A stretch of 64,000 bases of DNA from an uncultured Gammaproteobacteria bacterium. GTDB taxonomy: Bacteria > Patescibacteriota > Patescibacteriia > UBA9934. The position numbers and the translations under genes are program-made. Position 1 is the first letter of the stretch. Each line of letters starts with the position of its first letter. Positions 17,964 through 46,935 of this stretch are shown piece by piece. The notes beneath the pieces were generated by a model. The model had not been told where the DNA came from. It searched no databases and worked only from the letters and a program-made list of their open reading frames with translations. The DNA lies in assembly GCA_964552565.1 (NCBI GenBank), contig CAZKGL010000002.1, positions 365 through 64,364 of the forward strand, in the 5' to 3' direction.

Positions 17964-18650
17964 TTAGTCCGCAATGCTGACTGAGGATATCTTTGGTTCA
18001 AAGACGACGCGGCGGTAAATCACTGCAGACCGCGAGTAGCGGCGCTTCGCTTCGACCGTAATAACGTTGAGCCCGCGCTCGAGGTCGATCGTCGTTTCAA
18101 ACGTATTGTCCGCATTCACGATGACCGCCTCGCCGTTGATCGCGAGCGTCGCTTCCCCCTTCACGACCTCCCCCCGCACGGCCAGGAGCGCGGAGTCCGT
18201 CGCCATGCCGTCTTCCGGGGCGTACAACACCACCTCCGGCGCGCGCACGAGGCCGGTGAACTGCCAGCCGAAATACGCCAATACCACAAGGGCAAAAAGG
18301 CCGAGAAGGCCCGCGGCGACCGCTCCGGGGAGGTTAAAGAGCGACGCCTTGCGCACGCGCTGGCGCGGCATGCGCGACGGGTCGAGCAAGTCGCACCGGC
18401 CGCATTCCTCTTCGTAGAGCTCGATGAAATACTTCTCGTCCGCATGAAGAGCGCGGGCGTAGGCTCGGATGAAGTTGCGGGTGTAGAGCGGCTCTGGGAG
18501 CTCCTCGTACCGTCCACGCTCGAGCGCCTCGAGATAGCGACGCTGGACGTGCGTTTCACGTTCAATATCGCCAAGCGTGACCGCTTGGCCGCGGCGCAAA
18601 GCCCGCAACTTTTCCCCCAACGTCTGCGGGACTCGATCCAATTTCCGCAT
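17964..18650 (-). CDS. RodZ-like protein: N-terminal XRE-type HTH, one TM helix, C-terminal periplasmic domain
   Basis: HTH (LGEKLRALRRGQAVTLGDIERETHVQRRYLEALE), TM (AVAAGLLGLFALVVLAYF). Architecture matches RodZ / DUF4115 proteins. Confidence 0.6.
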   Translation of the reverse strand: MRKLDRVPQTLGEKLRALRRGQAVTLGDIERETHVQRRYLEALERGRYEELPEPLYTRNFIRAYARALHADEKYFIELYEEECGRCDLLDPSRMPRQRVRKASLFNLPGAVAAGLLGLFALVVLAYFGWQFTGLVRAPEVVLYAPEDGMATDSALLAVRGEVVKGEATLAINGEAVIVNADNTFETTIDLERGLNVITVEAKRRYSRSAVIYRRVVFEPKISSVSIAD

Positions 18651-18664
18651 GACGAACACCATAG

Positions 18665-20959
18665 CTATCCTTTTGCCTTGAGGTCTTCTTCCGTCTCCAC
18701 GTCCTCCTCCTCGTCAAACCGCGCAGCTTCGTCTTCATCGTCCGGCAGGTCGGCGTCTTCCTCATCTTCGTCCATCGCCTCTTCCTCGTCCAGTTCGTCA
18801 TCGTCCTCAGGCGGCCGGGTATTGAACTGCGTCGGCTTCCGGCTGCCCTCCGGCGGCCACTCGGTCACGAGGATTTCGCGCGGCTTTGCGCCGTCCTGGG
18901 CGCCGATAATGCCCATCTGCTCCATGAGGTCGATAATGCGCGCGGCGCGGGAGTACCCGATCTTCATGCGGCGCTGCAGGAAGCTCGTCGAGGCCTTGCC
19001 GCTCTCAAGGACGATCTGGATGGCGTCCTCCATGAGGTCGTCGCTGTCCTCCGGGTTCATGGAGACCCCGCCGGACGAGGCGCCTTCCGTAATCTGGTAG
19101 TTGTAGTCCGGCGCGCTCTCGCCCTTCAGGAAGTCGACCACGCGCTCAATCTCCTTTTCGGACAAATACGCGCCCTGCAAACGCCGCGGTTTGCTGATCT
19201 CCGGAGTCGACATGAGCATGTCGCCGCGGCCGAGGAGCTTTTCCGCGCCCGAGATGTCGAGGATAGTCTTGCTGTCGACCTGCGAGGCGACCGCAAAGGC
19301 AAGGCGCGTCGGGATGTTCGCCTTGATGGTGCCGGTGATGACGTCGACCGACGGCCGCTGCGTCGCAAGGACGAGGTGGATGCCGGCGGCGCGGGCCATC
19401 TGCGCAATGCGCACGATGACCGCTTCGACATCGCGCTTGTTCTGGCTCATGAGGTCGGCGAGCTCGTCGATGATAACGATGATGCGCGGCATGCGCTCCT
19501 TCGCCTTCTGGTTGTACGAGTCGATGTCGCGGGCGCCGAACTTCGCCAGGTAATCGAGCCGGCGTTCCATTTCGCGCACCGCCCACTTGAGGGCGTTGAT
19601 CGCCTCGTCCGCCTTGGTGATCGGCGGCACAAGGAGGTGCGGAATGCCCCCGTAGACGCCGAGTTCGACGCGCTTCGGGTCGACCATGATGAGTTTGAGG
19701 TCGTCCGGACCGTTCTGGTAGAGGAGCGAAATGATGATGGTATTCAAACAGACCGACTTCCCGCTGCCCGTCGCGCCGGCGACAAGCATGTGCGGCGCCT
19801 TGTCGACGGAAAGGAGCTGCGTCCCGCCCGAAATGTCTTTGCCGATCGGCGCGGTAAAACTCGTCTTGCGGTGCTGGAACTCCTTCGACTCGAGGAGTTC
19901 GCGAAGGCAGACGCGACCGATGGTCTGGTTCGGGACCTCAATACCGACGAGGGACTTGCCCGGGATCGGCGCCTCGATGCGGATCGGGTGCGCGGCGAGC
20001 GCGAGCGCCAAGTCGTTCTGGAGGGCGACGATGCGGGCGAGTTTGACGCCCTGCGCCGGGCGGAGCGCGTACTGCGACACGGTCGGCCCTACTTTCACCT
20101 CGCTCATCTCGACCGGGATGTTGAACTGGCTGAACGTCTTCACGATGATCTCTTTGTTGCGCTCGATATCGCCTGCCTTTGCGTCCGAGCTTCGGTCGTC
20201 GAGCAGGTCGAACGGGATCTCAATCTTGCGGCGCAGCTTGCTCGTCATGACCTGTTCGGCCGGCGGGACGTACGGCGCTGCAGGCGCCGAGTCTTCTTCC
20301 TCCGGGGACGAATCGGACGCATCAGCCGAATCGGACGCCGCCGACGGCTCCTCTTCTTCGCGCGCCTGCCGTTCCTCGAACGTCTCCCCGTCCTCGACCG
20401 CTTCCTCATCTTCCTTACGACGCATCATGCCAAACAGTGCGAAGGCCGGGGCGAGCAGCGTGCGGAGCGAGGTATTGAGGAGCACGATGACCGACACAAG
20501 GAAGCACGCGCCGGCTAAAATGAGCGCAGCGATGAACCCCATGGATGCCACGAGGAGTGACGACACCAAGAGGCCGAGCCGGCCACCAAAGGCGCTCACG
20601 ACCGCGACGTCGGTGACGCCCGACGCGAAAAGCAGGTTCATGAGGCCGCAGAATGCGACGACAAAGATGCCGAGCGCGAGCATGTTGCGCCAGGTGAGGA
20701 ACCGGCGGTCGCCGATGACGACCGTGGCGCCGATGGCGAAAAAGAGGAGCGGCACGGCGATGCGCGCCAACCCGACGTTCGCAGCCAAGAACCCGTCCAC
20801 GGTGCGGCCGACCTGGCCCGCCATCCCGAAAAACGCCAACAAGAGGATCGCCCCCACGGCAATAAGCCCGATCGCCACAATGCTCTCGCGCACGTCGTCC
20901 CCCACCATCACCTCGTCCTCCTGGTACTTGGGCGCCCTGCGCTTCACCTTTTTGGCCAT
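18665..20959 (-). CDS. ftsK: DNA translocase FtsK (with unusual acidic C-terminal tail)
   Basis: N-terminal TM helices, Walker A (GATGSGKSV), RecA-like motor, gamma winged-helix (FLQRRMKIGYSRAARIIDLMEQMGI), then about 60 aa of D/E-rich tail. Start at MAKKVKRR (ATG 20959). Confidence 0.9.
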   Translation of the reverse strand: MAKKVKRRAPKYQEDEVMVGDDVRESIVAIGLIAVGAILLLAFFGMAGQVGRTVDGFLAANVGLARIAVPLLFFAIGATVVIGDRRFLTWRNMLALGIFVVAFCGLMNLLFASGVTDVAVVSAFGGRLGLLVSSLLVASMGFIAALILAGACFLVSVIVLLNTSLRTLLAPAFALFGMMRRKEDEEAVEDGETFEERQAREEEEPSAASDSADASDSSPEEEDSAPAAPYVPPAEQVMTSKLRRKIEIPFDLLDDRSSDAKAGDIERNKEIIVKTFSQFNIPVEMSEVKVGPTVSQYALRPAQGVKLARIVALQNDLALALAAHPIRIEAPIPGKSLVGIEVPNQTIGRVCLRELLESKEFQHRKTSFTAPIGKDISGGTQLLSVDKAPHMLVAGATGSGKSVCLNTIIISLLYQNGPDDLKLIMVDPKRVELGVYGGIPHLLVPPITKADEAINALKWAVREMERRLDYLAKFGARDIDSYNQKAKERMPRIIVIIDELADLMSQNKRDVEAVIVRIAQMARAAGIHLVLATQRPSVDVITGTIKANIPTRLAFAVASQVDSKTILDISGAEKLLGRGDMLMSTPEISKPRRLQGAYLSEKEIERVVDFLKGESAPDYNYQITEGASSGGVSMNPEDSDDLMEDAIQIVLESGKASTSFLQRRMKIGYSRAARIIDLMEQMGIIGAQDGAKPREILVTEWPPEGSRKPTQFNTRPPEDDDELDEEEAMDEDEEDADLPDDEDEAARFDEEEDVETEEDLKAKG

Positions 20960-21059
20960 ATCAGTCCCTATTGTAGCAGATCGGCCGCCGTGTGAATAAA
21001 TGCTTGAACGATGCGGTTTTTCGGGGCAAACTGAAAGCTCACTTCCCCGGAGGACACCC

Positions 21060-21452
21060 ATGCAGGCCTTGGCCTCTCCCCGCACCGTCCACATGGCGAG
21101 CCGCCTCAAGGTGGGCGCCACGTTCATCGGCGACACCCGCGTCGGCGAGTACACCCACCACCGGTTCGGCCGTTCGCTGAACGCCCGCGACCCGCGCCGC
21201 CGTCTCCTCGCGCTCATCGCGTACGTCGACAAGGTCATGGCGGCGCAGCAGACGAAGACGCACGAGCCGGTCTTCCTCACGGTCGAGGACGCGTTCTGCC
21301 AGCCCTGTCCCCTCCTCACGGAGATCGTCGCCAAGTGGCGTCCGGAGTACACCGGCAAGATCTACGCCCGCAACCCGGAGGTCGTCGCCGAGCTCGAACG
21401 CTGGAGCGCGTTCCGCATCGAGATCGCGCCGAAGCCCTCCCGCCGCCGCTAG
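21060..21452 (+). CDS. hypothetical protein (130 aa)
   Basis: Very high GC3 ORF MQALASPRTVHMASRLKVGATFIGD..., preceded by GGAGGACACCC. Confidence 0.55.
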   Translation: MQALASPRTVHMASRLKVGATFIGDTRVGEYTHHRFGRSLNARDPRRRLLALIAYVDKVMAAQQTKTHEPVFLTVEDAFCQPCPLLTEIVAKWRPEYTGKIYARNPEVVAELERWSAFRIEIAPKPSRRR

Positions 21453-21570
21453 GCAGCCCCTCCCCCTCCGCCCCACGCTCGAGCACCGGCTCGCGTGGGG
21501 CGACGTCGTCTACGGTGACTGGACGCCCGTCATGGCTGGTTTTGCTATACGATGTACCATATACCTCTGT

Positions 21571-21885
21571 ATGACCAAGAAAATCGCTGGCGGTGTGGTG
21601 CACAACGTGCCGACGGATTTGCGGAAAGCATTCATTGCCGATCCGGATGCATTGGCGAAATGGAACGACCTTACGCCGCTCGCGCGCAACGAGTGGATCT
21701 GTTGGACGATATCGGTCAAACATCCGGAAACGAGAGCGGAGCACATTGCGCGCGTATGCTCGGAGCTGAAGGAAGGAATGCGGCGGCCCTGCTGCTGGTA
21801 TGGCTGTGTGCATCGTACGGATAAGCCCATAAGCCCTTCGGTGCAACACGTGTTGATGAAGAAGCGAGCAAAACCGAGGCGGTAA
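21571..21885 (+). CDS. YdeI/OmpD-associated (bacteriocin-protection) family protein, lower GC
   Basis: MTKKIAGG...WICWTISVKHPETRAEHIARVCSELKEG resembles the YdeI/OmpD-associated domain. Noticeably AT-richer codon usage than neighbours. Confidence 0.55.
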   Translation: MTKKIAGGVVHNVPTDLRKAFIADPDALAKWNDLTPLARNEWICWTISVKHPETRAEHIARVCSELKEGMRRPCCWYGCVHRTDKPISPSVQHVLMKKRAKPRR

Positions 21886-21899
21886 ATGGCAACCGCCCG

Positions 21900-22952
21900 C
21901 TACACGGAGTAGCGGGCGGCGTGGGCCGAGGTAATCTCGGCGAGGGTACGGCGGTCGACGAGTGAAAACTGGGCGCCCTCGGCATCCGGCCGCACGGCGT
22001 AGCCCCCGGGCGTCGTCGAGCCACGAATGCCCCAGATGTCCGTGAGCGGCGCGAGGTGGTCGCGCATCTCCGGCGTCTCTCGGCCGGTGATGACGACCTT
22101 GATCCGCCCCGGGGCGTAGGCACGGCCCATGATGCTCGTGATGGCGACCGCACGGATGAAGTCGTCATCGGTGCACCGCGCGTCCGTCGTCGCGCCCTTC
22201 GCGGGGTTGAGCCGCGGCACCGAAATGGTGACGAGCTCTGCCCCGAGGTCGAGCAGGATCCGGGCGTGCGCGGTGACGCAGGCGACCTCGAACCAGATGT
22301 CCGGGTTCGCGCCGAGGAGCGCACCGACCCCGACCTGCCGCCAGCCGGCTGTGAGCGCGGTCGTCGGCTGCGTCGCGCGCTCTTCCGGAGTCCCCTTGAA
22401 GCGCATGTCGTCCTCGGTGTGCATGACGCGGTAGCAGTCAGTGCCGTACGCCTCCTGGAACAGGACGTAACGGCAACCAGGACCGGCGACGTGCGCCAGA
22501 TGCTCGAGCTCGTGCCGCGCGAACGGCGACATCTCGAGGATCGGGCGCAAGCCCTGCTCACGCACTGCCGTGAGCCCGCGCGCCGCGAATTCGGCCTGGC
22601 GGCTCAGCGTGCCCCGCAGCGTAGACAGCGTGTCCCAGCGCGTGAGCGTGCCGCCGAGCACGTAGGCTGCCGTGCAGCCCATCAGCCAGATGGCCCCCGC
22701 CTCGCGGCCGAGATCGCGCTCGCTGAGCATGACGCGCGTCATGACGTTGCCCTTGCGGAACCCGCAGTACGCGCAGTTCGCGTGGCAGACGTTGTAGACG
22801 TAGAGCGGCGAGAACGCCTCGTGACAGCCTCCTGGCGGGCCGACAACGATCGCGCGCTCGAGCAGTGCTTCGCTGGAAAGAGCGGACAGGCTTCGGACAT
22901 CGTGAGCGATGCCCGCAGCCCTTTTGTGAATGGCTGCGAGCATCGTCGTCAT
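21900..22952 (-). CDS. radical SAM enzyme of the ThiH/HydG (tyrosine-lyase) family
   Basis: LYVYNVCHANCAYCGF matches ThiH LYLSNLCANDCTYCGF. C-terminal ISVPRLNP and TTPGGYA resemble ThiH SFPRLRP and TQPGGYA. Start at MTTMLAAIHK (ATG 22952). Confidence 0.75.
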   Translation of the reverse strand: MTTMLAAIHKRAAGIAHDVRSLSALSSEALLERAIVVGPPGGCHEAFSPLYVYNVCHANCAYCGFRKGNVMTRVMLSERDLGREAGAIWLMGCTAAYVLGGTLTRWDTLSTLRGTLSRQAEFAARGLTAVREQGLRPILEMSPFARHELEHLAHVAGPGCRYVLFQEAYGTDCYRVMHTEDDMRFKGTPEERATQPTTALTAGWRQVGVGALLGANPDIWFEVACVTAHARILLDLGAELVTISVPRLNPAKGATTDARCTDDDFIRAVAITSIMGRAYAPGRIKVVITGRETPEMRDHLAPLTDIWGIRGSTTPGGYAVRPDAEGAQFSLVDRRTLAEITSAHAARYSV

Positions 22953-22954
22953 GG

Positions 22955-23008
22955 CTACAGGTAACCCAGCTTGCGCAGGGCCTCGGTGAGCTTGTCGTTC
23001 TCGGACAT
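22955..23008 (-). CDS. 17-codon ORF (MSENDKLTEALRKLGYL) with consensus SD, stop 2 nt before the radical-SAM start; candidate leader or precursor peptide
   Basis: AAGGAGG 5 nt upstream of ATG; 17/18 codons end in G/C; TAG-CC-ATG junction with the downstream ThiH-like gene. Confidence 0.35.
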   Translation of the reverse strand: MSENDKLTEALRKLGYL

Positions 23009-23144
23009 GGCTGCCTCCTTGCGGGTTCTCCGCACCATGAAGATAGCCAAAACGCGGCAACAAACGTCTGTTGTCAGTACATGGATGACCTCCAGAAACT
23101 CGCCCATCCATTGACAGACATAGCATTGTATGGTGTCATATTTA

Positions 23145-23863
23145 TGATGACTATGCTTGAAGGGCATCTTGCAAAACTTGGACTCCCCAAGAACACGACA
23201 AAGGTCTTCCAAGCGCTTCTCGGCATCGACGAAGCGCGCGCTTCGGACGTCATTAAAAAGACGGGACTGCATCGGCACCTCGTCTACGAAGCGCTACGCG
23301 ACCTTGAAGCACGGGGTCTCGTAAAAAAGCTTGTGCGCGACGACGTCGCACACTTCCGCGTCATGAGTGCCGATCCCCTGCTCGAAGAAGCCGAAGAGCG
23401 TTACGCTGCGGCAGCAGAAGTTGCGCGGGTGTTGCGACAGCGCAAGCCAAAAGCCGAAAGCTCGGTAACATTCTTTGAGGGCATCGAAGGCGTGCATGCC
23501 TTTACTGAGTTTGTACTGGCACAGGGCGCAGATCTTGATGTTCTTGGTGCAAACGCCCGCTTCCGGCAGTTCTACCCCGAAATCTTCGACCTCTGGAACG
23601 AACGTCGCCTCAAAAAGCGCATTCGGTTCCGCGTACTTGCCCCGAAAGAAGTACGCGACGAGCACCTGAGCGATGTCCCCGGCGTGACTATTCACCGTTA
23701 CGACGGCCGACTTTTCCCAGGTGTCGCCTGGATCTTTGGCGACTACCTCGCACACATCGTCTGGAAAACCCGCCAAAACACCGAAATTATCCTCCTCAAA
23801 CAAACCAACCTTGCCGAACAGCACCGAGAACTTTTCAATGCGCTCTGGGGGACGACGAGATAA
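23145..23863 (+). CDS. TrmB-family transcriptional regulator (low-GC)
   Basis: N-terminal wHTH LGLPKNTTKVFQALLGIDEARASDVIKKTGLHRHLVYEALRDLEARGLV plus C-terminal TrmB-like domain. Divergent from the peptide/radical-SAM pair; TTGACA at 23111. Confidence 0.6.
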
Positions 23864-23906
23864 CACAAAAGCAGCCGACAGGGCTGCTTTTGTGTTTGTT
23901 TGTACG

Positions 23907-24473
23907 TTACTTCGCCACGCGCTCGACGTAGGCGCCGGTGTCGGTCGAAATGCGGACGGTATCACCCACGCCGACGAAGATCGGCACGCGGATCTTGAGG
24001 CCGTTGTCGCAGACCGCGTCCTTCTGGACGTTGCCCGAGGCGGTGTCGCCTTTCACGGCCGGCTCGGTGTCCGCGATCGTGTACTCGATCTTGAGCGGGA
24101 GCTCCATCGCGATCGCCTTGTCGCCGTGCATGATGACCGTCACGTCGAGGCCTTCCTTGAGGTACTGCGCGTCCTCCCCGACCGTGTCGCGGCCGAGTGA
24201 AACCTGCTCGTACGTCTGGCCGTCCATGAAGGTGAGCGTGTTCTCGTCGCCGAAGATGTACTGCATCTTCTTGAAGCCAACGTCCTCAAACGTCAGGGTT
24301 TCCGACGACTTGAAGTTGTTTTCCACCACCTTGCCGGTGCTGAGCGACTTGATGCGGGTGCGGACGAACGAACTGCCCTTGCCTGGGCTGACGCGTTGGA
24401 AGCCGACGACGACCCAGAGATCGTTTTCGTAGTTGATGACCGTACCCTTACGGATGTCATTCGGAGATGCCAT
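23907..24473 (-). CDS. efp: elongation factor P
   Basis: 188 aa, KOW/OB domains, conserved loop SPGKGSSF with Lys at the modification site. Confidence 0.95.
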   Translation of the reverse strand: MASPNDIRKGTVINYENDLWVVVGFQRVSPGKGSSFVRTRIKSLSTGKVVENNFKSSETLTFEDVGFKKMQYIFGDENTLTFMDGQTYEQVSLGRDTVGEDAQYLKEGLDVTVIMHGDKAIAMELPLKIEYTIADTEPAVKGDTASGNVQKDAVCDNGLKIRVPIFVGVGDTVRISTDTGAYVERVAK

Positions 24474-25371
24474 AACCTTGCTGCGTAAAACGTTCCGACG
24501 GAGGGAACAAATGAATACTATCGATATCCTTGGCGGCGGCCTTCAGCATGACCAGCCGGTCGACGCCGAGCGCATTGCCAAAGGTGGGAGACGCGACGGA
24601 GGATAGCCGAGAAAGCAGCTCCTCGTCAATCGGGAAGACCTCCTTGCCCGCCGCCCGGCGCTCCTCCTGCTCCATGCGGAACCGGGCACGCTGTTCGTTG
24701 GCATCCACGAGCTCGGTGAAGCCGTTGCATAGCTCCATGCCGCCCACATAGGCCTCAAACCGCTGCGCCGACCGGCCGTCCGGCGATTTTTGCGCGAGCG
24801 CGGCCTGGTCGATCGGGAACTCGTTCACAAAGAACCGGTCGTACGTGACCATGAGGGATGGGAGGATATGCTGGTTGAACGTGTCTTCGTCCGTCGCGCC
24901 GCGCGCACCCTGCCATGCCGCGAGGAGGTCGACGTACGAGAACCGCGGCCACCGCTCCCCCCTCCCGCCAACAAATCCGTCGATGAGCGCCTCGGTTTCG
25001 TCCATGCACGCGTGGTAGTCGGCGCCCTGGCGGTACCACTCGAGCATCGTGAACTCGATGGAGTGGTCGCCGCCGAGCTCTTCGACGTTGCGGAAGACCG
25101 GCGTCACCGTGTAAATGCGCTCCATGCCGGCGCCAAGGAGCTTCTTCATGCTGTACTCGGGGCTCGTAATAAGCCCGGCGCGCACCTTCCCGCGGCGAAT
25201 GACGTTCAGGTCGATGCCGACCGGGTCGAGGTTCGGCTCCATGCCCGGAGATGCGACCGCGATCGGCGTGCGGACGTTCGTGTACCCGCGTTCCGCAAAG
25301 AACCGGTCGAGGTATGCGTACGTGTCGTTCCAGAGCTGTGCGCGCTGCTGCGCGTCTTCACGAGAAATCAT
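24457..25371 (-). CDS. epmA: EF-P--(R)-beta-lysine ligase EpmA (PoxA/GenX; class II LysRS paralog)
   Basis: Class II aaRS motifs (FRNE, GGDHSIEFTMLEWY, NGFTE...GLGVDRL) without anticodon-binding domain. Overlaps the efp start by 17 nt. TGA stop. Confidence 0.85.
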   Translation of the reverse strand: MISREDAQQRAQLWNDTYAYLDRFFAERGYTNVRTPIAVASPGMEPNLDPVGIDLNVIRRGKVRAGLITSPEYSMKKLLGAGMERIYTVTPVFRNVEELGGDHSIEFTMLEWYRQGADYHACMDETEALIDGFVGGRGERWPRFSYVDLLAAWQGARGATDEDTFNQHILPSLMVTYDRFFVNEFPIDQAALAQKSPDGRSAQRFEAYVGGMELCNGFTELVDANEQRARFRMEQEERRAAGKEVFPIDEELLSRLSSVASPTFGNALGVDRLVMLKAAAKDIDSIHLFPPSERFTQQGYGISE

Positions 25372-25445
25372 AGCGAAAAATCAAGAATAAGCGTCATGAG
25401 ACGCCTATTCCTGGTGACGCGGATGTTTTCGCCACGTGTTGCATG

Positions 25446-25673
25446 TTACTCCTGGACAAACGGGAGCAATGCCATGATGCGCGAGCGCTTGATTTCGCCG
25501 GCGACTTCGCGCTGGTGGCTCGAGCAGAGGCCACTGCGCTTGCGCGGCACGATCTTCGCGAACGAAGAAAGGTAGCGGCGCAGCATGTCGGTGTTCTTGT
25601 AGTCGATGACGAGGTCCTTCTGCACGCAGAACGGGCAGTGGCGGACGCCGGTCTTTTGCTGTTGCTTTGCCAT
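25446..25673 (-). CDS. rpsR: 30S ribosomal protein S18
   Basis: CPFCVQKDLVIDYKNTDMLRRYLS... 75 aa. Confidence 0.95.
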   Translation of the reverse strand: MAKQQQKTGVRHCPFCVQKDLVIDYKNTDMLRRYLSSFAKIVPRKRSGLCSSHQREVAGEIKRSRIMALLPFVQE

Positions 25674-25679
25674 AAGGGT

Positions 25680-26123
25680 TTAGAACGGAATATCTTCAAG
25701 TTTGATTTCATCATCGGCAACCGGTGTGGGCGCATCGTCAGAGGCCGGTGCTTCGCTCTTGAACGGCGTGCCGCCGCCCATCCCCGCACCCGCCTTGTCG
25801 AGCATGATCATGTTCTCGGCGACGATTTCGGTGCGGTAGCGCTTCTGGCCGTCCTGGCCTTCCCACTCGCGGTTTTGGATGCGGCCGTCGACGTACACCT
25901 TTTTGCCCTTCGTGAGGTACTGAGCGCAGATCTCTGCCAAGCGGCCCCAGGCGACGATGTTGTGATAGTCGGCCTGTTCCTTGCGTTCGCCGGTCTGGGT
26001 GGTAAACGCGCGGTTGGTGGCAATACTGAACGACGTGACCGACTGGCCGTTCGCCGTCTTCCGGAGCTCCGGGTCGCGGGTCAGGTTGCCGATGAGCATT
26101 GCGCGGTTGAGGGAGTTTGCCAT
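25680..26123 (-). CDS. ssb: single-stranded DNA-binding protein
   Basis: OB-fold MANSLNRAMLIGNLTRDPELR..., Gly-rich linker, acidic C-terminal tail DDEIKLEDIPF. Confidence 0.95.
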   Translation of the reverse strand: MANSLNRAMLIGNLTRDPELRKTANGQSVTSFSIATNRAFTTQTGERKEQADYHNIVAWGRLAEICAQYLTKGKKVYVDGRIQNREWEGQDGQKRYRTEIVAENMIMLDKAGAGMGGGTPFKSEAPASDDAPTPVADDEIKLEDIPF

Positions 26124-26135
26124 ATGAAGAGCGCG

Positions 26136-26621
26136 TTAGATGCTCTTCATGATATCGGAGTCGAGGATTTCGTCGAGCTTCTTATCAAGCTCCTGGGTCG
26201 ACATCGGCTTTTCGTCCGTCGCGGCGGCCGGCTTGTCAGCACGGCGCGGGCGGTCGTCGGCCTTGTCGCTAGCGCGGCGGCCCTCCGCGTTGAGCGGCGG
26301 GACGTACGACGTCGGCTTCGGCGTGTGGACCGGGACGCCGTCCGGGCGGGCGACGATCATGTGGCGGAGCACCTCGTCGGCAAGGCGCAAGTCCTGGTCG
26401 ACCTTCTTCATGGCTTCCTGCGCGGCCTCGACGTAAAAGAGGACGTACGTGCCGTAGCGGACGTGGTCGATGGCGTACGCGAGCTTGAGCTTCCCGAGGT
26501 TTTCGGTCTTCTCAATCTTGCAGCCGTCGGTTTCGAGCGTCTTTGCGACGCGCTCGCTCACGGCGTCGATCTCGTTGTCGGAGAACTTCGCCGGGATGAT
26601 CGTGAGGATCTCGTAGATCAT
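26136..26621 (-). CDS. rpsF: 30S ribosomal protein S6 (with extended basic/acidic C-terminal tail)
   Basis: MIYEILTIIP...GKLKLAYAI...YVLFYV. rpsF-ssb-rpsR operon order conserved. Confidence 0.9.
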   Translation of the reverse strand: MIYEILTIIPAKFSDNEIDAVSERVAKTLETDGCKIEKTENLGKLKLAYAIDHVRYGTYVLFYVEAAQEAMKKVDQDLRLADEVLRHMIVARPDGVPVHTPKPTSYVPPLNAEGRRASDKADDRPRRADKPAAATDEKPMSTQELDKKLDEILDSDIMKSI

Positions 26622-26864
26622 AGGTGGCTTGGCTCCGGTGGTCCGGAGCAACCCCGGGTGGGGCTTTGGACAAGAATAAGTGGCCGAACTGTAGCGGAAA
26701 AGGCCGGTGGCGTCAATGCCCTAGGCGGGGGTGCCCCGGGTATGCCACAATTCTTGTCAGCGGCCGGTTTTTCTGCTAGGCTGCGTGCTCCTCTGCTCCC
26801 CTTGGGCATCTCGCCCGGGAGCCGACGAGGAGAGTAACCGCCCTTTCCCACAAGGAGGTGCGCC

Positions 26865-28631
26865 ATGGCGGCGACCCCCGAAACCACCCCCGCGCTCCCC
26901 GCGCCGGTCGGCGGCGGCCGGTACCGGTTCATCCGGGAACTCGGCGTCGGCGGCATGGCGACGGTCTACGAGGCCATCGACGACCGACTCGACCGCGTCC
27001 GAGCCATCAAGGTCATGCACCCGCACCTGACGCGCTCGAAGGAGCTCGTCGCGCGGCACATGGCCGAGGCCAAGGCGCTCGCGAAGCTCGAAGGCCACCC
27101 GAACGTGCTGCGCGTGTACGACGTCGGCGTCGAAGACGGCAAGTACTACATCGTCATGGAGCTCGTCGACGGGATGAACGTCGCGGAGATGATGTTCTTC
27201 CGCGGCGGCGGCAAGGTGCAGGCCAAGTTCCTCGTGCGGGAAGCCGTCGACACCATGCACGCGGTCCTGTCGGCGCTCCGCGCCGCGCACGAACTCGGCA
27301 TGGTCCACCGTGACGTCAAGACGCAGAACGTCATGCTCACGAAGGACGGGCGGGTGCTCGTCATGGACTTCGGCATCGCGCTCTTCGCCGACAGCACGCT
27401 CACGAAGACCTCGGTCGTCATGGGCGGCTTCACGACGAGCCCGCCGGAGCAGCTCATGAGCGCGAAGAACGTCGACCAGACGGCCGACATCTACGCGTGT
27501 GGCGTGATGCTCTACCACATGCTGTCCGCGGACCTCGAGACGACGGAGTTCTACAAGAAGGTGCGCGACGACGGCCGCATGTCGTCCGTTCCGCCTCCCT
27601 TCGTCACGGTGTTCCGCCGCGCCTGCGCGGAGCGCCCCGAAGACCGCTACCAGAACGTGGAAGAGATGGTCGCGGGGATCGACGACGCCATGCGCGCGTA
27701 CCTCGCGATGACGCCGACGAACGCCGCGCTGGATCCTCCTGAGCCTCAGGTGGCTCCGAAACTGGAGCGGCCGGCGGCGCAGGTGATCCGCCTCAGCCCG
27801 GAAGCGGCCGCGCCGACCGCGGTGCCCGAGGCGGTGGAGGACCGCCCCGAGCCGCCCGAGGCGATCGCGAGCCGCGTCACGATGCCGCCCGAGTCCATCA
27901 AGGGCGACATCAGCGAGGATCCGTTCGCGGATCCGCCCGAGGTGCGCTCCCGCTCCCCGCGGTGGCTCATCCCGGCCGCGGTCGCAGTCGTGCTCGCCGT
28001 CGGCGCCGGAGCCTGGTCCTGGCGCACCTCGCCCGAGGCCGCCCCGGACCCCGCCGTCACGCAGGTGGCGGTGGCCGCGCCGATGCCCGTCATCGATCCG
28101 GAGCCGGAGACGTCGATGGCGGTGGACGAGGACGACCGCGTGCTCGACACGAGCGTGCCCGACGTCGGGACCACCGTCCTGACCTCGGCGGACCTCGTGC
28201 CCGCGCCCGCCGTCGCCGCGTCGACCCCGATGCCCGCCACCGTCGCGCTCAGCGCGACCCCTGCGGCCATCGAGGCGCAACCGTCGGTGCAGCCGTCCGA
28301 GGCGAAGCTGCTGAAGCCGAAGGCCGTGAAGCCCAAGGCGGCGGCGAAGCCCGTCACCCACACAGCCCGGTCCGCGGACGGAAGCATCGTCTTCACGGCG
28401 ACGCTCACCCCGTCCGACGACGCCGCGCGGCTCCTCGTGCGCTACAAGGTGGGCACTTCCCCGTGGAAGAAGCTCGCCATGCGCCAGGGCGCCCCCGGGA
28501 CGTACACCGCCACCCTCACGGTCGACGAGACCATGAAGGACGGCGTGAGGTACGTCGTCGAGGCGAGCCGGGACGGCGCGGAGCCGCTGCGGGACGGCAG
28601 CATGGACGTGCCGTACACCATCGTGCCCTAG
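26865..28631 (+). CDS. Hanks-type serine/threonine protein kinase with TM segment and extracellular C-terminal domain
   Basis: GxGxxG (LGVGGMATVY), VAIK-like AIKVM, HRDVKTQN catalytic loop, DFG. Pro/Ala-rich linker, TM (WLIPAAVAVVLAVGAGAW). CAAGGAGG RBS. Confidence 0.9.
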   Translation: MAATPETTPALPAPVGGGRYRFIRELGVGGMATVYEAIDDRLDRVRAIKVMHPHLTRSKELVARHMAEAKALAKLEGHPNVLRVYDVGVEDGKYYIVMELVDGMNVAEMMFFRGGGKVQAKFLVREAVDTMHAVLSALRAAHELGMVHRDVKTQNVMLTKDGRVLVMDFGIALFADSTLTKTSVVMGGFTTSPPEQLMSAKNVDQTADIYACGVMLYHMLSADLETTEFYKKVRDDGRMSSVPPPFVTVFRRACAERPEDRYQNVEEMVAGIDDAMRAYLAMTPTNAALDPPEPQVAPKLERPAAQVIRLSPEAAAPTAVPEAVEDRPEPPEAIASRVTMPPESIKGDISEDPFADPPEVRSRSPRWLIPAAVAVVLAVGAGAWSWRTSPEAAPDPAVTQVAVAAPMPVIDPEPETSMAVDEDDRVLDTSVPDVGTTVLTSADLVPAPAVAASTPMPATVALSATPAAIEAQPSVQPSEAKLLKPKAVKPKAAAKPVTHTARSADGSIVFTATLTPSDDAARLLVRYKVGTSPWKKLAMRQGAPGTYTATLTVDETMKDGVRYVVEASRDGAEPLRDGSMDVPYTIVP

Positions 28632-46476: not shown

Positions 46477-46935
46477 ATGGCCGAACTCCGACGCATCACA
46501 CGCGACATCGTAGGAGGAGTACTCGTCTCACAAGACAACAAAGTGTTTCTTGGACAACATCGCGCAGGAGGCGTGTACCAGGAATGCTGGATTATTCCCG
46601 GCGGAGGAATCGAGGAAGGGGAGTCACAAGAAGATGCGCTCCATCGCGAAATGCTTGAAGAAACTGGCATCGACACTACCGGCTGCCCGATCGAATTCCT
46701 GAATACGGATACTGGCAGTGCAGAAAAAATATTGAAGACGACGGGGGAACGCGTCATCGTCGACATGACGTTTTACGATTTCCGCATCACACTTCCTTTG
46801 ACCGCTGAAAAAATTCCTCCAAGCCCTGACGACGAGCTCGTGCGCTCGCACTGGTATTCCATCGAAGAACTCAAGGGCCTTCGCCTCAGCCCTCCCACAG
46901 AAAAACTCTTCCGCAAAATCGGCTACCTCCCCTAA
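46477..46935 (+). CDS. NUDIX hydrolase
   Basis: Nudix box GGGIEEGESQEDALHREMLEETGI. Confidence 0.8.
   Translation: MAELRRITRDIVGGVLVSQDNKVFLGQHRAGGVYQECWIIPGGGIEEGESQEDALHREMLEETGIDTTGCPIEFLNTDTGSAEKILKTTGERVIVDMTFYDFRITLPLTAEKIPPSPDDELVRSHWYSIEELKGLRLSPPTEKLFRKIGYLP

What the first reader, a model, noticed from the sequence alone, without database searches (positions are those of the whole stretch)
21900..23863. 17-codon SD-driven ORF directly upstream of a ThiH/HydG-family radical-SAM tyrosine-lyase homolog, divergent from a TrmB regulator
On the minus strand a 54-nt ORF (22955-23008, MSENDKLTEALRKLGYL) follows a consensus AAGGAGG SD at 5-nt spacing. Of its 18 codons, 17 end in G/C. It terminates TAG-CC-ATG, 2 nt before the start of a ThiH-like radical SAM gene. 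ThiH/HydG/CofH/NosL-type enzymes are aromatic-amino-acid lyases acting on free Tyr/Trp. Here there is no thiG/thiS/thiF partner in the window, and the peptide carries a Tyr at its penultimate position (..GYL). The arrangement of a tiny translated peptide, a radical SAM enzyme and a divergent dedicated regulator resembles precursor-peptide/maturase pairs such as PqqA/PqqE and MftA/MftC (MftC processes a C-terminal Tyr). However, the enzyme belongs to a family not known to act on peptides. Alternatives are a leader peptide for coupling or attenuation of a thiamine-type ThiH, or a new peptide-tyrosine lyase system. No SPASM domain is visible.
Basis: partly seen in the sequence, partly recalled or inferred. 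Interest (0 to 1): 0.7.

Follow-up and report, generated by a model that had tools for sequence, protein, structure and literature searches.

The report
Small peptide gene before ThiH-like enzyme
A real 17-codon gene sits just upstream of a rare, uncharacterised relative of the tyrosine-cleaving radical-SAM enzymes in a Candidatus Uhrbacteria genome; its tyrosine-containing tail recurs upstream of the same enzyme in two distant relatives, so it may be a new peptide/enzyme pair, but most relatives lack it and that role is unproven.

Summary
The micro-ORF MSENDKLTEALRKLGYL (22955-23008, minus strand) has an AAGGAGG Shine-Dalgarno site 5 nt upstream and G/C at 17 of 18 third positions. It ends TAG-CC-ATG, directly before a 350-aa radical-SAM gene that has no Shine-Dalgarno site of its own.

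The enzyme is not ThiH. It scores 128 bits against a cutoff of 380. It belongs to a tiny family found only in metagenomes, inside the ThiH/HydG/NosL structural clade. It keeps the Arg/Glu pair that anchors a free amino acid. All three residues that hold the tyrosine phenolate in ThiH are replaced by glycine.

SD-driven small ORFs in the same position in two low-GC relatives (49-50% identical enzyme) end in KLGYVD and LLGYVGYVN. In a six-frame scan of 3989 segments, LGY[VLI] tails occur only at these three ORFs. A shuffle test puts the chance at about 0.005.

Eight of twelve loci lack the ORF. These include the nearest relative, where the same Shine-Dalgarno site drives the enzyme directly. A TrmB-like regulator with conserved operator palindromes is the more constant partner.

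Best reading (about 0.35): a co-translated peptide that is the enzyme's substrate or partner. Main rivals are a regulatory upstream ORF, an independent small peptide, and chance. Ordinary thiamine ThiH is effectively excluded.

The parts
22955..23008 (-). Micro-ORF of 17 codons plus TAG, MSENDKLTEALRKLGYL. The C-terminal motif KLGYL is shared with the small ORFs of L003 and L006.
23014..23020 (-). Shine-Dalgarno site AAGGAGG, 5 nt before the micro-ORF ATG. It is the only SD in the 5' leader. In L001 the homologous SD precedes the rSAM ATG itself.
23021..23033 (-). Small hairpin GCGGAGAACCCGC directly upstream of the SD. It is conserved as GCGGAGATCCCGC in L001.
21900..22952 (-). Radical-SAM enzyme, 350 aa, of the ThiH/HydG/NosL fold. 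CX3CX2C at C56/C60/C63. Anchors R291, E140 and R297 are kept. The phenolate crown is replaced by G290/G308/G311. The start codon lies 2 nt after the micro-ORF stop and has no SD of its own.
21877..21898 (-). Terminator-like hairpin plus T-run immediately after the rSAM stop codon.
23147..23863 (+). Divergent TrmB-family HTH regulator, 238 aa. Orthologues at 45-84% identity lie divergent to the rSAM in L001, L003, L006, L007 and L015.
23135..23151 (.). Operator-like palindrome O1, GTCAT-N7-ATGAC, overlapping the regulator's start codon. Present in the window, L001, L003, L006 and L015; only the ATGAC half-site of L007 lies within the stretches I read.
23073..23089 (.). Second operator-like element O2, GTCAT-N8-TGAC, between the promoter-like site and the micro-ORF. 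Counterparts occur in L001 and L007, and a GTCAG-N7-CTGAC palindrome in L015.
23125..23153 (-). Sigma-70-like promoter match (TAGTCA-17-TACAAT) for the micro-ORF/rSAM transcript, overlapping O1.

Best explanation
The locus is a three-part module.

(1) A TrmB-family regulator binds two palindromic operators in the divergent promoter region. It controls itself and the opposite transcript. This step is inferred from operator conservation.

(2) That transcript carries a single Shine-Dalgarno site, which starts translation of the 17-residue peptide. Ribosomes terminate at UAG and re-initiate 2 nt downstream at the SD-less AUG of the radical-SAM gene. The enzyme is therefore made only where the peptide has just been made. 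The layout is shown by the sequence; the re-initiation is inferred.

(3) The enzyme is a new, very rare branch of the ThiH/HydG/NosL aromatic-amino-acid-lyase clade. Its phenolate pocket is remodelled to three glycines and its N-terminal cap is about 40 residues shorter than in ThiH. This is shown.

The peptide is a genuine, selected product. Its functional part is the C-terminal h-x-[K/L]-L-G-Y-[L/V] tail. My preferred reading is that the tail is presented to the enzyme as substrate, or as a tightly bound partner. The 5'-deoxyadenosyl radical would then attack at the Tyr residue, by analogy with the Ca-Cb lyase chemistry of the clade. This last step is inferred, speculative and untested.

In the low-GC relatives the same peptide type is a separate SD-driven cistron. 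It is followed by a strong stem-loop before the enzyme's own SD, as in many precursor-then-enzyme operons.
For: Coding and coupling:
- SD at 5 nt, GC3 17/18 against intergenic GC of 49%, and TAG-CC-ATG with no SD before the rSAM ATG.
- All peptide-less relatives place an SD directly before the rSAM start.

Motif conservation:
- L006 reads MKMFFSLLVVLFLSSDVPQNTNQDRTNNINLFHKLGYVD.
- L003 reads MKSVSFLLILLVAPFLSGASQNVGQNRIGNLELLGYVGYVN.
- Both have an SD at about 5-7 nt, the same strand and the same position.
- LGY[VLI] in the last 9 residues occurs in only 3 of 3989 six-frame segments, and these are exactly the three ORFs.
- Dinucleotide shuffles give about 0.0005 per locus, or 0.005 summed over 11 loci.
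- Between L003 and L006 the frame is kept despite indels. The L-G-Y-V codons differ only synonymously (GGA/GGT, GTT/GTG). L003 carries an in-frame GYV duplication.
- A strong hairpin of different sequence sits at the same place between the peptide ORF and the enzyme SD in L003 and L006. I found no antiterminator alternative by reading the sequences.

Enzyme:
- High-confidence model, pLDDT 94.6.
- Best structural matches are ThiH 7pd1, HydG and NosL, TM 0.77-0.82.
- The crown T299/S318/S321 of TcThiH (PMC9046217) becomes G/G/G.
- The profile alignment starts at ThiH residue ~52, so the N-terminal domain is shorter.
- The conserved peptide residue is Tyr, the amino acid that ThiH and HydG, two of the clade's three structurally characterised members, cleave.
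Against: - No LGY-tailed ORF lies upstream of the rSAM in L001, L002, L007, L008, L009, L010, L011 or L015/L016. In L015 none lies within +/-10 kb. Apart from the truncated L011 copy, those enzymes keep all catalytic motifs, so the enzyme evidently works without a cis-encoded peptide.
- L001 has the same operators, hairpin and SD, but the SD-ATG is the rSAM start.
- R300 and E158 of ThiH, which bind the free amino and carboxylate groups of tyrosine, are retained as R291 and E140. This argues for a free amino-acid substrate.
- No RRE or SPASM domain, and no protease or transporter nearby.
- The N-terminal parts of the peptides are not homologous between clades. One is a 17-mer; the others are ~40-mers with a signal-peptide-like hydrophobic start.
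- Only three instances exist, representing two independent lineages. A profile search with the peptides found nothing else.
Confidence: 0.35

Rival explanations
1. Regulatory upstream ORF (leader peptide). The micro-ORF exists to gate translation or transcription of a free-amino-acid lyase. In the window it would act by obligatory termination/re-initiation coupling. The conserved ...LGY[L/V] tail would act as a Tyr-codon or nascent-chain sensor, in the manner of TnaC or SpeFL upstream of amino-acid-catabolic genes.
For: - The rSAM AUG in the window has no SD and lies 2 nt after the upstream ORF's stop, so the upstream ORF necessarily controls enzyme translation.
- The patchy, dispensable distribution fits a cis-regulatory add-on.
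- Only the C-terminal residues are conserved.
- The enzyme keeps its free-amino-acid anchors R291 and E140.
- In L003 and L006, small pyrimidine-rich segments can pair with the enzyme SD.
Against: - The two architectures, a 2-nt coupling versus a 70-nt spacer with a self-contained hairpin and a separate SD, would need different mechanisms with opposite logic.
- I found no antiterminator or alternative pairing in L003 or L006 (plus reading the sequence).
- The window leader shows no significant structure (z 0.24).
- A dedicated transcription factor is already present.
- The SD-driven hydrophobic N-terminus and the GYV duplication in L003 have no regulatory rationale.
Confidence: 0.22
2. An independent small functional peptide, either a secreted or membrane signal or a small protein partner of the regulator or enzyme. 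It would be merely co-regulated with the enzyme and not modified by it.
For: - The L003 and L006 peptides start with MK followed by an 11-14-residue hydrophobic stretch resembling a Sec signal or membrane anchor.
- The gene lies between a divergent HTH regulator and its target, as in Gram-positive pheromone cassettes (from general knowledge).
- A hairpin after the peptide cistron suggests the peptide transcript is more abundant than the enzyme's.
- The KLGY[L/V] tail looks like a generic amphipathic-helix C-cap. A similar tail ends a NUDIX protein in the same window.
Against: - The window peptide has no hydrophobic N-terminus and is tightly coupled to the enzyme.
- No receptor, transporter or processing genes are linked.
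- The association with this one rare enzyme family in two distant clades would then be unexplained.
Confidence: 0.15
3. Fortuitous ORF or remnant. A 56-nt insertion, or the remnant of an older gene, between the SD and the rSAM start in this one lineage. The motif match to L003 and L006 would be coincidence.
For: - The nearest relative L001 lacks exactly these 56 nt.
- An open 17-codon frame is not rare at 62% GC.
- Only two independent lineages share the motif.
- A KIGYLP tail also occurs by chance-level statistics at a NUDIX gene.
Against: - The combination of genome-typical GC3 of 17/18, an SD at optimal spacing, loss of any separate SD for the enzyme, and a motif match with shuffle probability ~0.005 is unlikely.
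- The L003 and L006 ORFs are maintained in frame with synonymous-only changes in the motif.
Confidence: 0.12
4. Ordinary thiamine-pathway ThiH (or HydG) with an irrelevant upstream ORF.
For: The best NCBIfam hit is ThiH. One homologue is labelled 2-iminoacetate synthase by JGI.
Against: - 128.5 bits against the curated cutoff of 380, and HydG 68.5 against 312.
- The family forms its own clade apart from ThiH.
- The Tyr-phenolate crown is lost.
- No HydG C-terminal cluster domain (350 aa).
- No thi genes among 30 window ORFs scanned and no TPP riboswitch in 18000-27000.
- The family is absent from 185,579 GTDB representative genomes.
Confidence: 0.03

Closest known systems
ThiH, 2-iminoacetate synthase (TcThiH, PDB 7PD1; TIGR02351)
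   Same: Same fold (Foldseek E 9e-23, TM 0.77). CX3CX2C cluster motif. The R300/E301, E158 and R306 equivalents are conserved. The beta8 segment has the same length as in ThiH.
   Different: HMM score is one third of the family cutoff. T299/S318/S321 become Gly/Gly/Gly. About 40 N-terminal residues are missing. There is an extra invariant Cys260. No ThiG/ThiS context and no TPP riboswitch. The family forms a separate clade.
HydG, [FeFe]-hydrogenase maturase (PDB 4RTB, 4WCX)
   Same: Best sequence-profile match in the PDB (158 bits). Same barrel.
   Different: Lacks the ~90-residue C-terminal auxiliary-cluster domain. Has Glu, not Asn, at ThiH position 158. No hyd genes were found nearby.
NosL, tryptophan lyase (PDB 4R33)
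   Same: Highest TM-score (0.80-0.82). NosL is the precedent for a member of this clade serving a RiPP pathway.
   Different: NosL acts on free Trp, not on the peptide. It lacks the R306 equivalent, which this family keeps. Sequence score is 63 bits against a cutoff of 400.
MftA/MftC and PqqA/PqqE peptide-derived cofactor systems
   Same: A very short hydrophilic peptide with a Tyr near its C-terminus is encoded immediately upstream of a radical-SAM enzyme.
   Different: Those enzymes are SPASM-domain proteins that need an RRE chaperone (MftB, PqqD) and are unrelated to the ThiH clade. MftA's Tyr is the last residue. Here Tyr is followed by 1-2 residues (5 for the upstream Tyr of L003's duplicated GYV) and no chaperone or peptidase is linked.
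TnaC/tnaA and SpeFL/speF amino-acid-sensing leader peptides
   Same: An SD-driven short ORF upstream of an enzyme that consumes an amino acid. Conservation is confined to the C-terminal residues.
   Different: No long Rho-dependent spacer. Here there is either a 2-nt overlap-type junction or a 70-nt spacer with a plain hairpin. No evidence of arrest.
Precursor gene, stem-loop, biosynthetic gene layout of lantibiotic and sactipeptide operons
   Same: L003 and L006 show a peptide cistron, a strong hairpin with a weak T-tract, and then an enzyme with its own SD.
   Different: A single enzyme with no protease or transporter. The window version has no hairpin and uses coupling instead.

Membership tests
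ThiH (TIGR02351, 2-iminoacetate synthase) | Score at or above the curated equivalog cutoff of 380 bits | tested here: not met
   128.5 bits
ThiH (TIGR02351, 2-iminoacetate synthase) | Tyr-phenolate crown T299, S318, S321, plus R306 | tested here: not met
   G290, G308 and G311 replace the crown; R297 is kept
ThiH (TIGR02351, 2-iminoacetate synthase) | Free amino-acid anchors R300 and E158 | tested here: met
   R291 is invariant and E140 nearly invariant
ThiH (TIGR02351, 2-iminoacetate synthase) | Thiazole-pathway context (thiG, thiS, thiF, thiE) and/or a TPP riboswitch | tested here: not met
   None among 30 window ORFs. No Rfam hit in 18000-27000. The rest of the genome could not be searched.
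HydG (TIGR03955) | C-terminal auxiliary [4Fe-4S]/dangler-Fe domain and a score at or above 312 bits | tested here: not met
   350 aa aligning to HydG residues 93-380 of 477; 68.5 bits
NosL/NocL (TIGR04158) | Score at or above 400 bits, and absence of the beta8 bulge and the R306 equivalent | tested here: not met
   63.3 bits. The R306 equivalent is present and the beta8 segment has ThiH length.
Radical-SAM aromatic-amino-acid-lyase structural clade (ThiH/HydG/NosL) | Full TIM-barrel radical-SAM fold with CX3CX2C and the (S/T/G)-R-E motif on beta7 | tested here: met
   pLDDT 94.6. The top 11 PDB hits are all ThiH, HydG or NosL. C56/C60/C63 and R291-E292 are invariant.
RiPP precursor / radical-SAM maturase pair | Precursor gene consistently adjacent to the maturase across the family | tested here: not met
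   Present in 3 of 12 loci, with a weak fourth
RiPP precursor / radical-SAM maturase pair | Conserved core motif in the peptide | tested here: met
   h-x-[K/L]-L-G-Y-[L/V] in all three peptides; shuffle probability ~0.005
RiPP precursor / radical-SAM maturase pair | Peptide-recognition (RRE/PqqD-like) or SPASM/twitch domain in the enzyme or a neighbour | tested here: not met
   No such Pfam or NCBIfam hit at E<=1. Neighbours are housekeeping genes.
RiPP precursor / radical-SAM maturase pair | Enzyme-dependent modification of the peptide | not testable with these tools
   Needs biochemistry or a co-folding model. A fused or paired input was not accepted by structure prediction.
Attenuator or arrest-type leader peptide | Mutually exclusive RNA structures, or a defined stall site linking upstream-ORF translation to downstream expression | tested here: inconclusive
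   The window has only a coupling junction and the leader is unstructured (z 0.24). L003 and L006 have a hairpin plus possible SD pairing, but no antiterminator was found.
TrmB-family regulator | N-terminal TrmB winged-helix domain above the Pfam gathering score | tested here: met
   PF01978 at 40.3 bits against a cutoff of 25.6. The C-terminal domain is unassigned, and the AF2 single-sequence model failed.

The most novel reading that the evidence does not exclude
The enzyme would be the first member of the ThiH/HydG/NosL lyase clade to act on a ribosomally made peptide. It would attack the Tyr of the C-terminal LGY(L/V) motif. For example, Ca-Cb scission would release p-cresol and leave a dehydroglycine or glycyl residue, or after hydrolysis a C-terminally amidated ...KLG-NH2 peptide. 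That would define a minimal two-gene RiPP-like system in candidate-phyla-radiation (CPR) bacteria.
Probability: 0.27. Interest if true: 0.85.

Novelty: new variant of a known kind. Interest (0 to 1): 0.6.

Why it matters
All characterised enzymes of the ThiH/HydG/NosL clade cleave free tyrosine or tryptophan. A branch that has dismantled the tyrosine-phenolate pocket, carries its own regulator and is repeatedly joined to a Tyr-tailed micro-peptide points to new chemistry in a well-studied enzyme clade. That chemistry could be peptide-directed, or could act on a different amino acid.

It also bears on candidate-phyla-radiation (CPR) bacteria, whose small genomes are thought to have almost no secondary or cofactor metabolism.

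Whichever role proves right, the window offers a clean natural example of a gene whose translation depends entirely on re-initiation after a 17-codon ORF. The hypothesis can be tested directly with a synthetic 17-mer and one recombinant enzyme.

Tried and rejected
- Two scans of GTDB representative genomes with family alignments found no relative. IMG/VR gave none. JGI metagenome contigs returned only the already known L003 contig, as L005.
- A profile search with the three peptides against 5.8 billion proteins returned only the L003 ORF itself. Two earlier attempts failed on parameter limits.
- Rfam at E<=0.1 gave nothing in 18000-27000.
- Classical attenuation was considered. I found no antiterminator pairing in L003 or L006 by reading the sequences, and the window leader is unstructured.
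- A 408-aa in-frame extension of the rSAM from ATG 23126 was rejected. It runs through the promoter and operators, and no homologue has it.
- A frameshift or assembly error fusing the peptide to the enzyme was rejected. The TAG stop intervenes, there is no slippery site by inspection of the junction, and all homologues start at the same position.
- The L004 mini-ORF MLIVLAVGYVWK (GTG start, no SD) is treated as unsupported.
- Structure prediction of the TrmB-like regulator failed.
- The AFDB fold library was unavailable.
- I considered the rSAM as an EpmB substitute for EF-P lysylation, because of the epmA-efp synteny. I did not pursue it. The synteny is confined to close relatives and the known aminomutases are PLP enzymes of another family.
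- Literature searches found no description of a ThiH-like enzyme paired with a peptide.
Full report
**Observation**

The minus strand between 23008 and 22955 encodes MSENDKLTEALRKLGYL followed by TAG. AAGGAGG lies at 23020-23014, 5 nt upstream of the ATG. The TAG is followed by CC and then the ATG (22952) of a 350-aa ORF ending at 21900.

Seventeen of the 18 codons end in G or C. For comparison, the neighbouring rSAM and efp genes have GC3 of 0.87-0.88. The intergenic DNA just upstream is 49% GC. Only 7.7% of all 18-codon windows in any frame of the 64-kb window reach 17/18, and none do in the two off-frames of the rSAM gene.

The rSAM start at 22952 is confirmed by alignment. All full-length homologues begin at the same M-x-x-L-x-x-I position. 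The longer 408-aa reading from 23126 runs through the promoter region and has no counterpart in any homologue.

**What the enzyme is**

The best database name for P0001 is 'hypothetical protein HYS28_02800, Candidatus Uhrbacteria bacterium'.

- NCBIfam gives ThiH 128.5 bits (cutoff 380), HydG 68.5 (cutoff 312) and NosL 63.3 (cutoff 400).
- Pfam Radical_SAM and BATS both fall below their gathering scores.
- A search of 5.8 billion clustered proteins found only about a dozen relatives at 43-63% identity. The next hits are true ThiH at 28%.
- An exhaustive profile search of 1.84 billion representatives shows the same cliff. Four clusters score above 200 bits, then generic ThiH/HydG-like proteins at 180 bits or less.
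- No relative was found in 185,579 GTDB species representatives or in IMG/VR.
- A neighbour-joining tree places the family as one clade beside, not within, ThiH.

An AlphaFold model built on a 53-sequence alignment is confident (pLDDT 94.6, pTM 0.93). Its 11 best PDB matches are ThiH 7PD1/7PD2, HydG 4RTB/4WCX and NosL 4R33/6HTK/6HTO, with TM 0.74-0.82.

I mapped the family onto the tyrosine-bound TcThiH structure (PMC9046217) with a MAFFT alignment.

- R300, which binds the amino and carboxylate groups of the substrate, corresponds to R291.
- E158, which binds the carboxylate, corresponds to E140.
- R306 corresponds to R297. All three are retained.
- The three residues that hold the phenolate (T299, S318, S321) are G290, G308 and G311 throughout the core family. 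Position 299 is Ala in the most distant members.
- The family lacks about 40 N-terminal residues of ThiH, because the profile alignment begins at ThiH residue ~52.
- It lacks the C-terminal cluster domain of HydG.
- It has an invariant Cys260 that ThiH and HydG do not have.

No thi genes were found among 30 window ORFs scanned. No riboswitch lies upstream. This is not a thiamine ThiH. It is a new branch of the aromatic-amino-acid-lyase clade with a remodelled side-chain pocket.

**Constant and variable parts of the neighbourhood**

I read twelve independent family loci.

A TrmB-family regulator lies divergent to the rSAM in the window, L001, L003, L006, L007 and L015. These regulators are orthologues, 45-84% identical to the window protein.

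The shared intergenic region carries a conserved palindrome over the regulator's start codon. This is GTCAT-N7-ATGAC at window 23135-23151. A second GTCAT...TGAC element lies about 50 nt further on, at 23073-23089. A sigma-70-like match overlaps the first palindrome. Regulator plus enzyme is therefore the conserved core module.

In the high-GC relatives the enzyme also follows epmA-efp (window, L001, L002, L008, L014). This synteny is confined to close relatives.

**The micro-ORF in relatives**

The nearest relative L001 (63% identical enzyme, 84% identical regulator) has the same operators, the same small hairpin (GCGGAGATCCCGC) and the same SD. There, however, the SD-ATG is the rSAM start. 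The window has 56 extra nucleotides, which are the micro-ORF. L002, L007, L008, L009, L010 and L015 also have an SD directly before the rSAM and no comparable ORF. L011 carries an N-terminally truncated enzyme.

Seen alone, that would suggest a fortuitous ORF. However, the two low-GC loci (39-40% GC, enzyme 49-50% identical to the window's) each have an SD-driven small ORF on the same strand between the operators and the rSAM.

- L006: MKMFFSLLVVLFLSSDVPQNTNQDRTNNINLFHKLGYVD
- L003: MKSVSFLLILLVAPFLSGASQNVGQNRIGNLELLGYVGYVN

Together with the window's ...ALRKLGYL, they define a tail of the form h-x-[K/L]-L-G-Y-[L/V].

- In a six-frame scan of every locus plus the whole window (3989 stop-delimited segments of at least 10 residues), LGY[VLI] within the last nine residues occurs three times, and these are exactly the three ORFs.
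- Dinucleotide-preserving shuffles of the 240 nt upstream of each rSAM produce such an ORF at about 0.0005 per locus, or 0.005 summed over 11 loci.
- L003 and L006 are related to each other (enzymes 69% identical). The match therefore counts as one independent confirmation, not two.
- Between L003 and L006 the ORF is kept open across indels. The L-G-Y-V codons differ only synonymously. L003 has an in-frame duplication of the GYV unit.
- A weak fourth candidate in L004 (GTG-start MLIVLAVGYVWK, no SD) is not counted.
- A profile search with the peptides found nothing else.

**Expression logic**

In the window the only SD of the leader serves the micro-ORF. The rSAM AUG lies 2 nt after the UAG with no purine-rich tract before it. 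Every peptide-less relative has its own SD there. The enzyme must therefore be translated by termination and re-initiation. The layout is shown by the sequence; the mechanism is inferred.

In L003 and L006 the peptide cistron ends about 70 nt before the rSAM. It is followed by a 10-13-bp hairpin that differs in sequence between the two loci but sits at the same place. After that comes a pyrimidine tract and the enzyme's own SD. I found no alternative (antiterminator) pairing. The window leader folds no better than shuffled sequence (z 0.24).

**Weighing the explanations**

*For a functional peptide that the enzyme acts on or binds:*
- The conserved residue is Tyr, the amino acid that ThiH and HydG cleave.
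- The peptide is always immediately upstream and co-directional.
- The layout in the low-GC loci (precursor, hairpin, enzyme) and the duplicated GYV unit are typical of precursor genes.
- The enzyme's cap is shortened and its ring pocket is opened.

*Against it:*
- Two thirds of the loci lack the ORF, yet apart from the truncated L011 copy their enzymes keep every catalytic motif.
- L015 has no candidate within +/-10 kb.
- The Arg/Glu pair that binds a free amino acid is conserved.
- There is no RRE/SPASM domain, protease or transporter.
- The N-terminal halves of the peptides are unrelated between clades.

*A purely regulatory upstream ORF* explains the patchiness and the coupling. It does not explain the two different architectures, the lack of switchable RNA structure, or the hydrophobic N-termini.

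*An independent secreted or membrane peptide* explains the signal-like N-termini. It does not explain the 17-mer or the specific association with this rare enzyme.

*Chance* is disfavoured by the combined codon-bias, SD and motif statistics.

My estimates are: substrate or partner peptide about 0.35, regulatory upstream ORF about 0.22, independent peptide about 0.15, fortuitous about 0.12, and ordinary ThiH about 0.03. The remainder is unassigned.

**Comparison with known systems**

The enzyme works like a ThiH/HydG/NosL lyase as far as fold, cluster and amino-acid anchors go. It fails the membership tests for each of the three named families: the score cutoffs, the phenolate crown, the HydG C-terminal domain and the pathway context.

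The peptide-plus-enzyme arrangement resembles MftA/MftC and PqqA/PqqE only in outline. Those use unrelated SPASM enzymes with RRE chaperones. NosL shows that this clade can serve a RiPP pathway, but through free tryptophan.

No paper in the searchable library describes a ThiH-type enzyme paired with a peptide. NCBIfam release 20 has no model for this family.

**Verdict**

The specific claim of a precursor/maturase pair remains a minority-probability hypothesis with clear counter-evidence. I rate it a new variant of known kinds: a novel branch of a known enzyme clade with an optional coupled micro-peptide. Interest is 0.6. A synthetic 17-mer and one recombinant enzyme would settle the question.

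Noticed in passing
window 46477-46935 (+): A 152-aa NUDIX hydrolase ends ...LSPPTEKLFRKIGYLP*. It is the only other segment in the window with [LIVM]GY[LIVMF] in its last nine residues. About 2 such segments are expected by chance and the DNA is not similar. It is probably a generic helix C-cap, but it could be a second target if the enzyme acts on protein tails. NUDIX genes also lie next to the rSAM in L002 and 5 kb away in L004, without this tail.
   Followed up: partly
window 23907-25371 (-); L001, L002, L008, L014: An epmA-like gene (class II tRNA-synthetase fold, 304 aa) overlaps efp. This pair lies next to the TrmB/rSAM module in the window, and efp directly precedes the rSAM in L002 and L008. 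No epmB (lysine 2,3-aminomutase) was seen among the window ORFs scanned. The synteny is restricted to close relatives.
   Followed up: partly
window 21480-21899: About 420 nt downstream of the rSAM stop show no coding-type GC3 signal and no Rfam match. That is unusually long for a compact CPR genome. It lies between the rSAM terminator and a convergent 150-aa ORF of unknown function (21000-21452, +).
   Followed up: partly
L011 2155-2811, L012, L013: A 218-aa homologue (P0012) lacks the whole N-terminal third, including CX3CX2C, and has Lys in place of the carboxylate-binding Glu. It recurs in three samples. It is followed 44 nt later by a Beta_elim_lyase-family (threonine-aldolase-like) gene.
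   Followed up: no
window 22173-22175 (-), residue C260 of the rSAM: A Cys in the motif R-C-S/T-D-D-D-F is invariant in the core family alignment and nearly so in the wider one. It is absent from TcThiH and HydG, which have Val or Ile there. It may be a hydrogen-atom donor or a family-specific catalytic residue.
   Followed up: no
window 23111-23153 (+): A TTGACA box conserved in all TrmB-bearing loci lies ~20 nt before a weak -10 that abuts the regulator's ATG. The regulator mRNA may therefore be leaderless and auto-repressed through palindrome O1.
   Followed up: no
L003 2462-2485: A tandem 9-nt duplication (GGATACGTT GGATACGTA) doubles the G-Y-V unit of the peptide tail (LLGYVGYVN).
   Followed up: partly
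L015 3341-21020: In this 109-kb contig the TrmB/rSAM module is inserted between the str operon (S12, S7, EF-G, plus a 623-aa ABC-F-like ATPase) and EF-Tu with the S10 ribosomal operon.
   Followed up: no
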